Origin: Antedon mediterranea
Taxonomy: Eukaryota > Animalia > Echinodermata
Assembly (NCBI RefSeq): GCF_964355755.1
Contig: NC_092672.1
Span: 13,392,001-13,456,000 of the forward strand
Direction of reading: 5' to 3'
DNA length: 64,000 nucleotides
Position numbers and translations under genes: made by a program. The notes beneath the pieces are model-generated. The model worked only from the letters and a program-made list of their open reading frames with translations, was not told where the DNA came from and did no database searches. This document shows positions 28,648-64,000 of the stretch, one piece after another (the stretch's first letter is position 1; each line of letters begins with the position of its first letter).

Positions 28648-29277
28648 TGTTTACAGGATTTTGTTCTTTTCACGTGTTCATGTTATGTATATTGTGTGTT
28701 AAAGTACGTTCATACGAGAAAAAGAGGGCGGTGTGGTTGTTATGTATTAATTTTTTAAATAATTTACGAAACTTTCGCGGTCCAAGCATATGATAAGCAT
28801 AGATTAACCGTTGGTAGAAATTTAAATTGCAGCATGCAGCTAGCTGTGATATATTCTCTGCTGTGTCTCCGGCCCACATGTCAATGTCATCACATGGTGT
28901 TTGCTGCCAGAAGTGCGCGCCGCCAAGTTTAATTTACTGCATAGATTAGATAGGATAGGTTGGTCCTGCGATATATCTATTTAATTGTTTTACAAATCGG
29001 TAAACATTAGAGTAATTTTGTTGAATGAAGAGCGATATGGACCAATGATGTCTGTCGACGGAGCGGAAAGGTTAAATGAAACGGCCATCTCACCTCACCG
29101 CAGCATGTGCATGAGGTGTGGATCTCCCAACTATTGTGTGTGTCTATCAGCTGTGTGTGTGACACAGTGTCAGTGAAGTTCCCGCCATCATACCAGTCTC
29201 TCAATGAATAGTGCTTAGAGGACAGTGAGTTAACTCCTAAGGGCTGCCTTTTCTCGTAGTCTTAACTTAGTTTATTT

Positions 29278-29690
29278 GGGCGCTAATGCAGTTTCGTACC
29301 CACCCCTTAAAATTACTCAAAAAATCTTCATCCAACCTACTCACGAGTTGTCTACAACATCCTGCAATCATAAAATTGTAAAAAAATTTTTATTTAAAAC
29401 TATTTTTAATCAATTAATACTGAGCACCCTTCGGAAATACATCGCCAGTACTTTTATCGGCAGGCCGAGTAGCGATGATTTTCGCGAAGCTAAGCTGGCG
29501 ATAAATGGATTTCTGAAGGGTGCTCAATTATTAATTGATTAAAAATAGTTATAAATAAGAAATTATCGATATTTTACCATTTTATGCTTGCTGAATGTTG
29601 TAGACAACTCATGAGTAGGTTAAATGAAGTATTGAAACCATTTTGAGTAATTGTATAAGGGGTGGGTACGAAACTGCATTAAGCGCCGTG
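29278..29690. mobile_element. Palindromic MITE
   Basis: GGCGCTAATGCAGTTTCGTACCCACCCCTTA ... TAAGGGGTGGGTACGAAACTGCATTAAGCGCC, with extended internal inverted symmetry. Confidence 0.88.
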
Positions 29691-29978
29691 TATTCGTTTG
29701 TTAATATGTGTCTGTCAAACAAAGATGTTTTTGAATGAATTGTGTTTTAAAACTGATTTGCTAGAAAAGCACACCGTATTTATTCAAATAACACAACATT
29801 ATTGTTGTTGTGGAGGGGACTGAGGGTTTATTGTTCAGGAGGTTTTTATTTAAATAGGGGGAGTTTAATGGAGGGAGCAATTTATTCGGGACCAGGGGAG
29901 GTGTTTATTTTTCTATACTGGCTGCATCTAGTCGTATACAATCTTCTCTCCAGACTATATCTACGCCTATATTTGATA

Positions 29979-30312
29979 CGCCTTTTTCACGAAACGGAAG
30001 ACATCTTCGATTGATGACAAACAATGCTATGCAACGAATGGTAACCAATAGAAATAACAGCGTTTTTAGGGGATTTCAGGACACCATGTTAATATTCGTA
30101 ACTCTGGAACGGAGGATCATATGAGAAAAAAAAATTTTTCTTAAAAACTAAAAGATTGGCCTACATCACTGTGTGATTGAAAAAAATTAGAAACAAGTAA
30201 CTTGTCCTCCGAAAATAGGCTGAAAACGCTATTTTATTTCTGTTGGTTACGCTTTGTTGCACAGCATTGTTTGTCATCGATCAAAGATGTCTTCCGTTTC
30301 GTGAAAAAGGCG
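29979..30312. mobile_element. MITE with ~90-bp TIRs, TA-flanked
   Basis: TA|CGCCTTTTTCACGAAACGGAAGACATC ... GATGTCTTCCGTTTCGTGAAAAAGGCG|TA. Confidence 0.88.
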
Positions 30313-30438
30313 TATAGTGTCCCTATGGATTTTGATGTATTCGAAGTAAATTAAATTAAGTAGAGAGTCACAGAAATTCACAATTCGTGAGTCAGAGAAA
30401 GAAGAACGGAATGTTGTATATTTACTTCTTCTTGACAG

Positions 30439-30701
30439 GATTATGGATGAATTCTAGTGATTACCAGAATGAATTTCAGACATCATAGTAATGTAGACTA
30501 CTGAGGCCAAGTCTGTGGAGTTTTGATTCTGCTGGAAGATCTCCGAAACAAGTTTAGTAGCTCGATTTCTTTACTTTTCTAAAGTATTAAATGTCTATTC
30601 TAAAATGACAAGACCATACAGTACCCGGACAGCTTACTCCATCAGGTGGCTCGAAAGTACAGTAGCGCTCTGTCTGGGAGAAAAGGATGTACACATTTCC
30701 G
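30439..30701 (+). ncRNA. Candidate non-coding spliced exon of a transcript divergent from POLRMT
   Basis: Strong acceptor TTTACTTCTTCTTGACAG (ends 30438) and donor CG|GTAAGC (30702); stop codons in all three frames. No expression data. Confidence 0.35.
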
Positions 30702-61147: not shown

Positions 61148-61814
61148 CCGTACTGACGCGGGTATAAGCCCATACTCAGGTATAAGCCCATACTCAGGTA
61201 TAAGCCCAGCCCCGACTTTTGACTAATTTTCATGAAAAATAAGGCACTCTGGTATAAGCCCACCCATTAATTTGAAGATCTACAGTCTGTGTCGTAATAC
61301 ATTATTTTGTATTTGGCGACGTCCATACACCGAATACACCTACCTTTGATCATAACCAAGCTAGGCTAATATACGCTAGGCCATATGAGGCCTAGCGGTC
61401 CTGTTTTGTTTACACTCCATATCACGGTAAAAGATCGCTTTTCACACGACGCTACATGTCGCCAAAACGGAAAACCGCTATTTGGTATCGGCTGCCATAA
61501 ACAAGCTTATTAAATTTCTTTGGTACATTTCTATTTAACGAACATTGTATACTTGCTTTTCTGCTTGATAAATTCTTGTTCAATTGATGTTTAAAATAAG
61601 ATATTCTACGATAAATTACACAAACTATAAGCTTAATTTTCCGACACTCTACACCTCGTGTATTTTAGAGGCAACGTCGTACAAGTGAGGGCGCTTGCTC
61701 GCATGGTGGAATACACAGTGTACATGTGCTGTTTTTGACGATCTGCATTTTCGGATCCTCGCTTGATGTGATTTCATGTTCAAGGGGGGTGGGCTTATAC
61801 CCGCGTCAGTAGGG
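61148..61814. mobile_element. pogo/Tigger-type MITE
   Basis: TA|CCGTACTGACGCGGGTATAAGCCCA ... TGGGCTTATACCCGCGTCAGTAGGG|TA; repeated GGTATAAGCCCA motifs. Confidence 0.9.
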
Positions 61815-62839
61815 TACTTACAATAAATCATTCCACGTAAAGTTCCTGATGTGCTTTCATCATCTTGACCCTCTGATTCTATGATTAACAATAAGAAAAT
61901 ATTAAGATTGTTCTGTTCAAACTAATGGGCAAACTATTCCATAAAATTATTGTAAATGAAAAATTTAGCACCTACCATCAAGTATACTGTAGAAGAAAAT
62001 GCTGTAAAATTCTTCTTCGTGGAGGAAGAAGTACATAAGCATTTCTATCTGTAAGATATACAAAATACTGTACTATAAATTGTTGTATTTAAATCGGTTA
62101 TAAAGATTTTCATTGACAGTATAAAAAGCAGTTTTATATACCGACACATACTTGATGTTCATTAACAACAGGTCTTGTATTAATTGAAGCTCGAGATGTG
62201 AGAGGCGCAGAGTTGCAACCCGAACTTTTTAGATTTTAGCCTTGAAGTTCAGAAGGTGAAGGTAAACAAACAACTAACCCGAATCACGTCATGTTTGGTA
62301 CCTACAGTATCTATTCGAAAATATATTAGCTACCATAATTTTTAACAACCTTAGGAATTTTTTAAAGGAAATTGGTTTTATTAAGGTGTTAGGTTGCTGA
62401 ATTTTCTAAGAAGAATTTATGAATCCTTGTCTGTGATTGGCTATAGAGACAAATTACGCTCTCTGATTGGCTGACGCTTTTGTAGCATGGCTTCTATCGT
62501 AGTTTCTCGAATGAATGTTTCAACAGTTTGTGAATATTTAGGAAGTTAATCGTTATTTTTATCGGCATAGACTGAGGCTTGGGCTCGGCATTACCGATTG
62601 GTTGCTAGGCATGCCAACCAGCCCCTCACTGACCGTGAATGAATTGCCGATCATTTTGGGGTTTGGGTTTATATTTGGTCCATGACCTAAAATATCATTT
62701 ATGGCAGAAAAATGCCAAATCCCATACTTGCACCAGCTCCAGATTTATTTAATCTGTCTTTCGCCGCTTTATACGACGACCGCAACCCCTTCAATTTCGT
62801 TTAAATATGAAATCCTTCTTTACGAGGATCTCTCTTAAT

Positions 62840-63614
62840 ATCCTGAATGGATATTTCCTATGGCCAACGTGTGAATCGGTCAATACACGTTAACAAATAA
62901 GTATATCCATTTGAGTGTGGTAATGGTCCTACTAAGTCAATATGAACATGCTGGAATCTTCCAGTTGTCTGCTCAAATGCAGATAATGGTGCGATTGTGT
63001 GTCGATGAATTTTTGATTTTTAACACTGCAAGCATGTTTTAGCCCAGTTTCGTACATCAGAATTAATGTCAAATTATAACATTGATACAAACTTTTGTTT
63101 TGTTTTAATTCCCGGATGTGACAAGTTATGAAGGGTGTTGAATATTAGGCGAAGATACTTGTCGGGAATAAAAGGTAAAGGGTTGCCACTTGACATGTCG
63201 CATACAATTGTGATATCAGCGTTCGGCACTGGCAATACCTTCCAAACAATTGTGTTATGAACATTGGAGTTGAGGAGTGTTTGTAGTTCTGTGTCAGATT
63301 TCTGTGCTTGGGCTTGCCGCCTGTGCGTAACATGTTTGTTAGTGGTTCTTTTAAATGTTGTTCATGTTCTTCTGGGCTGCAGCTTGCTACCAAAACATCA
63401 ATATACGCGTAGAAAGTGTAGGCAACTCGTAATTTTGTCGATGAAGCGTTGGAAAGTTTGAGCAGCATTACGTAATCCAAATGGCATTTTGACGAATTCG
63501 TAGAGTCCAAATAGGGTAGTAATGGCGGTTTTATGGATGTCCTCCTCAGCCATAGTTATCTGGTGGTATGCTCGTACAAGGTCGATTTTTGAAAAGATTG
63601 TTGTGCCTTGTAGA
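62840..63614 (-). mobile_element. Internally deleted Ty3/Gypsy pol fragment (RT + integrase)
   Basis: [19 protein letters not shown]...[40 protein letters not shown]...VRNWAKTCLQC...HVHIDLVGPLPHSNGYTYLLTCIDRFTRWP. Confidence 0.9.
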
Positions 63615-63929
63615 TTAGCAGTGAAGTCTTGTATAAATTAAAAGTTCAATATGTGCCAAGTGCCCAACGTGTGAATCGGTATAAGCCGCGTATGTGTGTG
63701 AATTCTCATTTCTTGGCATAAATTGTAGCCTAAGGATGCACATTGGGACTTTTTCTCGCAATAAAAATGATGTGTTGGTTCTTTTTAGTGTTTCGTTTAA
63801 TAATTTGTTTGTTTTTATATAGTGATGTCTCTTACAGGTTGAAGGGAGAATAGAAGAAATCAGCAAAAGTAAATCAGAATATGCAGCTTGTGTGAGTGAG
63901 TGCTTAATTACAAATAATAAAATCGACAT
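63615..63929 (-). mobile_element. CACTA/EnSpm-type transposase N-terminal fragment
   Basis: SILLFVIKHSLTQAAYSDLLLLISSILP pattern followed by a frameshifted Cys-containing segment. Confidence 0.55.
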
Positions 63930-64000
63930 ATACAGGCTTACTACGGTATATATAAATGATCAGATCCTTAAAATAATTTCGTAAAAAAGGGGGCGTTGTT

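What the first reader, a model, noticed from the sequence alone, without database searches (positions are those of the whole stretch)
29000..64000. Candidate flamenco-like uni-strand piRNA cluster: ~35 kb of unrelated transposon fragments all on the same strand, head-to-head with POLRMT
Seen: all 12 coding transposon remnants I could classify here lie on the minus strand. They are Kolobok (31.6-33.2k), Academ (34.4-36.0k), Sola1-like (39.1-41.2k), L2 (42.4-43.6k), BEL (44.7-45.0k), Sola2 (45.9-46.5k), Gypsy (48.6-53.0k), Ngaro-like (56.4-57.1k), Kolobok (57.2-57.4k), piggyBac (58.6-60.1k), Gypsy (62.8-63.6k) and CACTA (63.6-63.9k). The weaker DUF4806-like exons, the Helitron-like end and several unclassified exon remnants are also on the minus strand. 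If insertions were independent and random, 12/12 has a two-sided probability of about 0.0005. The fragments are truncated, abut each other, span both TE classes, and no host gene is visible. The only possible plus-strand exception is a short non-coding LINE-tail-like piece at 46.5k. Established: Drosophila flamenco and similar uni-strand clusters are long Pol II transcripts filled with antisense TE fragments. Inference: a plus-strand precursor starting near the POLRMT promoter would give antisense piRNAs against about ten TE superfamilies, acting as a transposon trap.
Basis: partly seen in the sequence, partly recalled or inferred. Interest (0 to 1): 0.88.

Follow-up and report, generated by a model that had tools for sequence, protein, structure and literature searches.

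The report
Feather-star one-way transposon array beside POLRMT
In a feather-star genome, at least 33 kb next to the start of the mitochondrial RNA polymerase gene is packed with broken pieces of unrelated jumping genes that nearly all point one way, the layout of a locus that likely makes transposon-silencing small RNAs (piRNAs), although those small RNAs could not be tested here.

Summary
The strand bias is real. The window is from a feather star (Antedon): POLRMT maps residue for residue in 29 minus-strand exons, starting at 28,617. From 31.6 kb to the window end, all Pfam transposon hits above cut-off are on the minus strand (6 ORFs, 5 elements; 0 of 191 plus-strand ORFs). A codon model trained only on POLRMT finds 22 coding-like segments on minus and 6 on plus (all 6 overlap minus ones), against 1 in 19.2 kb of POLRMT introns. 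One plus-strand LINE-like tail is a likely exception. New: one low-depth contig of a probable RNA run starts exactly at a strong plus-strand splice acceptor (30,439), a weak hint of a transcript diverging from POLRMT, antisense to the array. Best reading: a uni-strand piRNA cluster of the slug/planarian type (0.6). It is not flamenco-like in the strict sense, because DNA transposons dominate. A giant intron of an unseen plus-strand gene is not excluded. No small-RNA data were available. The scan has noted this layout before in at least 5 other genomes, sea urchins included.

The parts
5499..28617 (-). POLRMT (mitochondrial RNA polymerase), 29 coding exons, introns 92-3,278 nt; start codon at 28,617
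   Evidence: P0001 (named Antedon mediterranea POLRMT) maps 1303 of 1303 residues with GT-AG introns; Pfam RNA_pol and RPOL_N
27205..27690 (+). LINE-like 3' end inside POLRMT intron 1, antisense to POLRMT; outside the array
   Evidence: 148-aa ORF, codon score 21.3 plus / 7.8 minus; family assignment (CR1-like) recalled, no Pfam hit
28618..30438 (.). Inferred shared (bidirectional) promoter region with two palindromic MITE-like repeats; no coding-like segment
   Evidence: CpG observed/expected 0.8-1.2 here, 0.52-0.56 from 30.4 to 31.3 kb; 0 coding-like segments; high repeat depth at 29.3-30.6k; promoter function inferred
30439..30701 (+). Candidate spliced non-coding exon of a plus-strand transcript
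   Evidence: Run X1 contig 30439-30660, 222 nt, 0 differences, depth 4.5 begins at an acceptor of 8.2 bits (10 of 35,290 positions as good); donor at 30,701 of 8.8 bits is the best plus donor in 28.6-30.8 kb; its ORF has no homologue. One contig, one run: weak hint
31580..33200 (-). Intron-containing DNA transposon remnant (Kolobok-type motifs, recalled)
   Evidence: codon score 17.8 minus / 10.3 plus; no Pfam or homologue hit
33281..34420 (.). 178-bp tandem array, 6.5 copies
34420..36000 (-). Frameshifted transposase remnant (Academ-type motifs, recalled)
   Evidence: codon score 22.8 minus / 11.2 plus; four minus segments; homologue search never returned
36200..37520 (-). Unclassified exon-like remnants
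   Evidence: minus segments of 11.8-12.5 bits; one overlapping plus segment of 12.9 bits, so the strand is not settled by the codon model
39050..41200 (-). Intron-containing transposase remnant (Sola1-like, name recalled)
   Evidence: Pfam DUF7869 E 1e-13; codon score 37.7 minus / 9.7 plus
42361..43890 (-). LINE remnant (L2-type, recalled) with internal deletion and 3' tail
   Evidence: Pfam RVT_1 E 1.5e-15; sequence
44720..45010 (-). Short reverse-transcriptase remnant (BEL/Pao motifs, recalled)
   Evidence: no tool support; motif recognition from memory
45930..46480 (-). Transposase C-terminal remnant (Sola2-type, recalled)
   Evidence: codon score 17.9 minus / 8.1 plus; no relative in metagenome contigs
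46480..46665 (+). Probable LINE 3' end: hairpin, poly(A) signal, short tandem tail; the one plus-strand exception
   Evidence: fold z -4.0 on plus, -1.6 on minus; sequence; class recalled
46695..48460 (-). Unclassified exon-like remnants
   Evidence: minus segment 46957-47079 of 21.9 bits, best plus 5.5
48600..53038 (-). Gypsy-type LTR retrotransposon remnant (RT, RNase H, integrase), 5'-truncated and interrupted by a 1.7-kb insertion
   Evidence: Pfam rve, Integrase_H2C2, RVT_1, RT_RNaseH
50218..51928 (.). Non-autonomous terminal-inverted-repeat element with a 3-bp target duplication, nested in the Gypsy remnant
   Evidence: 43-bp inverted ends, flanks
53820..55853 (.). Non-autonomous terminal-inverted-repeat element with a 7-bp duplication; 1.15 kb of it recurs in two POLRMT introns in both orientations
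56400..57070 (-). Remnant with DIRS/Ngaro-like motif (recalled)
   Evidence: no tool support
57070..57420 (-). Second Kolobok-type remnant (recalled)
   Evidence: Pfam MULE E 0.026, below cut-off; codon score 7.5 / 4.2, not significant
58586..60100 (-). piggyBac transposase remnant, 463-aa open frame
   Evidence: Pfam DDE_Tnp_1_7 E 1.9e-71; PDB piggyBat E 3e-39
62850..63640 (-). Second Gypsy-type remnant (RT next to integrase pieces)
   Evidence: Pfam RVT_1 E 5.5e-11, rve E 0.003
63640..63960 (-). Remnant with CACTA-like N-terminal motif (recalled); the array runs off the window end
   Evidence: no tool support

Best explanation
This is a one-way array of broken transposon pieces next to the start of the feather-star POLRMT gene that likely acts as a uni-strand piRNA cluster. 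Shown: the array, its minus-strand polarity, its far higher density of coding remnants than POLRMT introns, and continued nested insertion. Hinted by one contig: a spliced plus-strand transcript that leaves the POLRMT promoter region in the opposite direction. Inferred: this Pol II transcript (or its unspliced or alternatively spliced forms) runs on through the array, reads every remnant antisense, and is cut into PIWI-bound piRNAs against both DNA transposons and retrotransposons. Insertions that land antisense would be kept because they add silencing; sense insertions would be lost because their splice and poly(A) signals cut the precursor short; deletions would trim the elements to coding pieces.
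For: Polarity by three independent measures: Pfam 6 ORFs minus, 0 plus of 358; codon model 22 minus / 6 overlapping plus segments; splice sites 69/31 and 30/11. Density: about 14.1 of 33.3 kb is classified coding-element remnant (boundaries and four names rest on my reading) against one coding-like segment in 19.2 kb of POLRMT introns. The array begins on the far side of the POLRMT start. Run X1 behaves as spliced RNA: two of its contigs lie on POLRMT exons 3 (24491-25022) and 7 (19591-19841) to within one base and continue with letters that do not fit there. One X1 contig starts exactly at a strong plus-strand acceptor (30,439; 10 of 35,290 positions score as well), 41 nt short of the best local plus donor, while a DNA contig (X2 record 15) runs through both sites. 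The exon's ORF has no protein homologue (weak search). Same layout as slug and planarian uni-strand clusters (PMC11615739, passages). piRNA-like RNAs matching DNA transposons and retrotransposons are reported from a sea-urchin gonad (PMC13666137, passage citing Wei 2012).
Against: No small-RNA data. The transcript hint is one contig of depth 4.5 in one run whose RNA status is a guess of the tool; contigs carry no strand, its 3' end is not at a splice site, and the match was noticed after the fact (about 12 ends-by-strand chances among the three X1 pieces listed beyond 29 kb, so roughly 0.003). The donor at 30,701 could splice over the whole array. Poly(A) signals are not depleted on the plus strand (55 plus / 40 minus). 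One probable plus-strand LINE tail with its poly(A) signal sits mid-array. Under an intron-type bias of 3:1, 12 of 13 has probability 0.13. Four of the 12 fragments lack tool support. No genome background could be measured.
Confidence: 0.6

Rival explanations
1. The array is a very long intron (or the body) of an ordinary plus-strand gene or long non-coding RNA that shares the POLRMT promoter. Sense insertions were purged because they disturb splicing and termination; no piRNAs are made.
For: Exon 30439-30701 ends in a strong donor. Antisense bias of LINE and LTR elements in introns is established in mammals (PMC3088655, passages; that study left DNA transposons out). The single coding LINE-like piece in POLRMT introns is antisense to POLRMT too. 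12 of 13 is compatible with a 3:1 bias (0.13).
Against: POLRMT introns are short (92-3,278 nt) and hold only one coding-like remnant in 19.2 kb, while the array holds 22 minus segments in 33 kb: purging explains polarity but not the pile-up. No protein matches the exon's ORF (weak, and the exon could be 5' UTR). No plus-strand Pfam hit in 191 ORFs.
Confidence: 0.25
2. An ordinary heterochromatic transposon graveyard whose polarity is chance, helped by non-independent nesting and by the scan picking extreme windows.
For: Only 5 elements are confirmed by Pfam (5 of 5, p 0.06); 4 names are recalled only; nested insertions are present; no genome background.
Against: Homology-free measures agree; the remnants come from unrelated elements, so local duplication cannot explain shared orientation (self-comparison shows no duplicated coding piece); the array starts beside an active promoter.
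Confidence: 0.1
3. The array is cargo of one giant mobile element (for example a rolling-circle element) that captures sequence in its own orientation.
For: Co-oriented capture by Helitrons is known from plants (recalled); the pieces are truncated and abut.
Against: No Rep/helicase or other driver found by Pfam in the window; the first 4 kb of the array is near single-copy in DNA runs apart from short repeats; the cargo is transposon, not host-gene, sequence.
Confidence: 0.05

Closest known systems
Uni-strand piRNA clusters of the slug Arion vulgaris and the planarian Schmidtea mediterranea (PMC11615739; 12 passages read); unidirectional clusters of Deroceras laeve (PMC12506671; 5 passages)
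   Same: Densely packed transposon fragments on one strand in an invertebrate; predicted piRNA production from the opposite strand.
   Different: There the piRNAs were sequenced; here they are not. Echinoderm, not lophotrochozoan. A divergent start from a housekeeping-gene promoter was not described in the passages read.
Drosophila flamenco and flam-like clusters (PMC10643416; 12 passages read)
   Same: Fragments opposite to the inferred transcript; discrete promoter and spliced 5' end (hinted here).
   Different: In flam-like clusters the strand bias is driven by Gypsy elements alone and the syntenic loci are 227-1,085 kb; here DNA transposons are the larger share (8.1 of 14.1 kb) and only 33 kb is visible.
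Mosquito somatic uni-strand clusters (PMC13172572; 12 passages read)
   Same: Antisense Gypsy and BEL/Pao pieces; sizes from 10 kb up.
   Different: Those are LTR- and virus-focused and follicle-cell specific; no virus-derived piece was found here.
Mammalian piC-DoGs and bidirectional pachytene clusters (PMC11615739)
   Same: A cluster that borrows transcription from a neighbouring unit; antisense transposon bias.
   Different: piC-DoGs are read-through downstream of a gene on its own strand; this array lies upstream of POLRMT. Pachytene pairs are two piRNA precursors, not a precursor and a protein-coding gene.

Membership tests
Uni-strand piRNA cluster (general) | Dense array of transposon fragments | tested here: met
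   about 14.1 of 33.3 kb classified remnant; 22 coding-like minus segments against 1 in 19.2 kb of introns
Uni-strand piRNA cluster (general) | Fragments polarised to one strand | tested here: met
   one probable exception
Uni-strand piRNA cluster (general) | Pol II transcript from a discrete promoter, antisense to the fragments | tested here: inconclusive
   one contig starting at a plus-strand acceptor; contigs give no strand or start
Uni-strand piRNA cluster (general) | Precursor spans the array | not tested
   reads were laid on 13.3-33.25 kb only; 33.25-64 kb was not examined
Uni-strand piRNA cluster (general) | Uniquely mapping 24-32-nt, 1U-biased, PIWI-bound small RNAs from one strand | not testable with these tools
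   no small-RNA run offered
flamenco / flam-like clusters | Strand bias and enrichment specific to Gypsy elements | tested here: not met
   DNA transposons 8.1 kb, LTR and tyrosine-recombinase types 4.5 kb, LINE 1.5 kb, all polarised (class labels partly recalled); criterion from PMC10643416
flamenco / flam-like clusters | Hundreds of kb long; expressed in ovarian somatic follicle cells | not testable with these tools
   array runs off the window; no genome held; no tissue data
piC-DoG (read-through downstream of a gene) | Lies downstream of a gene's poly(A) site on the gene's strand | tested here: not met
   lies upstream of POLRMT; no plus-strand gene found in the window

The most novel reading that the evidence does not exclude
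A crinoid, from the earliest-branching living echinoderm class, keeps a pan-transposon memory locus that is fired backwards from the promoter of an essential housekeeping gene (mitochondrial RNA polymerase), so that a single always-on precursor yields antisense piRNAs against about ten superfamilies, mostly DNA transposons, in soma and regenerating tissue as well as germ line. It would be the first uni-strand piRNA cluster described in an echinoderm by my searches, and a route of cluster birth (divergent transcription from a housekeeping promoter) distinct from read-through.
Probability: 0.3. Interest if true: 0.68.

Novelty: new member of a known kind. Interest (0 to 1): 0.47.

Why it matters
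If true, it gives a named, promoter-anchored piRNA source locus in a crinoid, a group with no piRNA cluster description found, and extends mixed-class uni-strand clusters from molluscs and flatworms to invertebrate deuterostomes. It would make two open questions testable with one small-RNA library and one long-read library: whether such clusters can be born by divergent transcription from housekeeping promoters, and whether DNA transposons are trapped by orientation as retrotransposons are. The kind of locus itself is well known, and this scan has seen the layout many times.

Tried and rejected
No whole genome is held, so no genome background and no view beyond 64 kb. Sequencing-run search on 24.4-33.2 kb: no RNA holder listed; 5 runs, 2 studies, one only guessed to be RNA. 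In that run (X1) 30320-30438 and 30661-31290 have no cover and 31.9-32.6 kb has mean depth 0.77; holes in contigs prove nothing either way and are not used as evidence. I spent the second laying on 30.3-31.3 kb hoping for loose ends that would name the neighbouring exons; there were none, and 33.25-64 kb was left unexamined. Homologue searches: plus-strand exon ORF, 0 of 7 candidates; Kolobok-type ORF, 0 of 48; BEL-type ORF against PDB, nothing relevant; Academ- and Sola2-type pieces in metagenome contigs, 0 of 382 and 0 of 168 stretches; protein atlas unavailable; representative-protein search with the Academ-type ORF never finished. Lenient Pfam on 45 hand-picked ORFs and 10 short frames added only MULE at E 0.026-0.15. 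A full six-frame scan through stop codons was not obtained, so remnants in ORFs under 40 aa may be missed on both strands. Left side: Pfam covered 133 of 152 minus ORFs and 17 of 139 plus ORFs of 41 aa or more. Poly(A)-signal asymmetry: not significant in the array or in POLRMT. Rfam 25-64 kb: 0 matches. Earlier scan notes on this genome or on crinoids: none. Literature: searches listed no paper describing a piRNA cluster in a crinoid or a uni-strand cluster in an echinoderm; I saw listings and abstract starts only, the library lacks most subscription papers (Wei 2012 on a sea-urchin gonad was seen only as cited in PMC13666137), and no supplements were read.

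
Full report
Setting. The window is animal DNA of about 34% G+C. A minus-strand ORF matched a protein named DNA-directed RNA polymerase, mitochondrial-like of Antedon mediterranea, and that protein maps to the window at 1303 of 1303 residues in 29 exons with GT-AG introns of 92-3,278 nt, start codon at 28,617. The organism is therefore a feather star of the genus Antedon. No whole genome was available.

Is the polarity real? I scanned every stop-to-stop ORF of 40 aa or more from 29 to 64 kb against Pfam, 191 on plus and 167 on minus. Hits above cut-off fall in 6 ORFs of 5 elements, all minus: DUF7869 at 39.2-39.5 kb, a LINE-type RT at 42.9-43.6 kb, Gypsy-type integrase and RT/RNase H at 48.8-52.9 kb, a piggyBac transposase at 58.6-60.0 kb (also PDB) and a second RT at 63.4-63.6 kb. 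Five of five alone is weak (p 0.06), so I added two tests that need no homology. A codon model trained only on the POLRMT coding sequence of 33 scoring tiles minus-best (66 tiles examined, not independent) and finds 22 minus and 6 plus segments of 10 bits or more; each plus segment overlaps a minus one, and the 19.2 kb of POLRMT introns hold one segment. Splice-site matrices from the 28 POLRMT introns find 69 strong donors on minus against 31 on plus and 30 acceptors against 11, as expected of intron-containing transposase genes lying on minus. Four fragments (BEL, Ngaro-like, second Kolobok, CACTA) got no significant support from any call; I recognise their motifs on the minus strand from memory, and the superfamily names Kolobok, Academ, Sola1, Sola2, L2, BEL, Ngaro and CACTA are recalled. 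The 46.5-kb piece folds as a hairpin on plus (z -4.0) but not on minus (z -1.6) and is followed by a poly(A) signal and short tandem tail: a probable plus-strand LINE end, so the fair count is 12 of 13 (p 0.003 against 50:50; 0.04 against 2:1; 0.13 against 3:1).

Anatomy. About 14.1 of 33.3 kb is classified remnant: 8.1 kb DNA transposon, 4.5 kb LTR or tyrosine-recombinase type, 1.5 kb LINE (my boundaries). No coding piece is duplicated within the window. Some are young (open frames of 463 and 506 aa). Non-coding elements with inverted ends and target duplications have since inserted at 50.2-51.9 kb and 53.8-55.9 kb, so the region still receives ordinary transposition. A 178-bp tandem array lies at 33.3-34.4 kb. 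No plus-strand gene and no Rfam family was found. The array runs off the window.

Transcription. Five runs hold the start of the region; none is on record as RNA. Run X1 nevertheless behaves as spliced RNA: two of its contigs lie on POLRMT exons 3 and 7 to within one base and continue with letters that do not fit there. The same run has a 222-nt contig at 30,439-30,660, identical to the window, depth 4.5. It begins exactly after a pyrimidine-rich AG on the plus strand that scores like a true POLRMT acceptor (8.2 bits; 10 of 35,290 positions score as well) and stops 41 nt before the best plus-strand donor in 28.6-30.8 kb (30,701; 8.8 bits); neither end fits a minus-strand splice site. A DNA contig runs through both sites. 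CpG is undepleted from 28.0 to 30.4 kb and depleted from 30.4 to 31.3 kb, compatible with a shared promoter. The exon's only long ORF has no homologue. This is one contig in one run, without strand, noticed after the fact; I treat it as a weak hint of a spliced plus-strand transcript diverging from POLRMT. It cuts both ways: it supplies the predicted antisense transcript, but its donor could splice over the whole array. Poly(A) signals are not depleted on plus (55 against 40).

Mechanism. Best reading (0.6): a uni-strand piRNA cluster transcribed from the POLRMT-divergent promoter, in which antisense insertions are kept and sense ones purged. Shown: array, polarity, density, position, nesting. 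Hinted: the plus-strand spliced 5' part. Inferred: the long precursor, its processing and the selection on orientation. Main rival (0.25): a giant intron or ordinary long non-coding RNA, where purging of sense insertions is established for LINE and LTR elements in mammals (PMC3088655, 11 passages); this explains the polarity but not why coding remnants are more than ten times denser than in the neighbouring gene's introns. Chance (0.1) and cargo of one giant element (0.05) are less likely.

Comparison. Flam-like clusters owe their bias to Gypsy elements alone (PMC10643416, 12 passages); that feature is not met, so this is not a flamenco-family member. It works, if at all, like the uni-strand clusters of slugs and planarians (PMC11615739, 12 passages; PMC12506671, 5 passages) and partly like mosquito somatic clusters (PMC13172572, 12 passages). 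It is not a read-through cluster downstream of a gene. [quoted passage not shown] Searches (listings only) found no crinoid piRNA cluster. The scan's own notes list 46 similar findings in at least 5 other genomes, two of the eight shown in sea urchins; these are unchecked notes and not support.

Verdict. Observation largely right; interpretation plausible and modestly strengthened, but unproven. New candidate member of a known kind; interest 0.47.

Noticed in passing
window 1997-3921: Tandem repeat of about 575 bp in 3.3 copies, 93-96% alike, downstream of POLRMT.
   Followed up: no
window 6195-8578, 19994-21776, 53820-55853: A family of non-autonomous inverted-repeat elements sharing 1.15-1.7 kb at 90-94% identity occurs three times in 64 kb, in both orientations and with different nested ends; high depth in DNA runs.
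   Followed up: partly
window 26091-26268: Palindromic 180-bp element with extreme depth in DNA runs and in run X1: a very high-copy MITE in POLRMT intron 1.
   Followed up: no
window 25624-25831 and 27992-28188: Inverted pair of a 200-bp repeat, 90% alike, 2.2 kb apart within POLRMT intron 1.
   Followed up: no
window 42186-42225 and 43866-43900: A 35-nt stretch is repeated on both sides of the LINE remnant, too long and too far from its tail for a simple target duplication; unexplained.
   Followed up: no
window 24478-25134: POLRMT exon 3 encodes a long lysine-rich low-complexity stretch that does not align with the Anneissia protein.
   Followed up: no
window 28370-28470: Short degenerate repeats rich in CGATCG just inside POLRMT intron 1, with high CpG content.
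   Followed up: no
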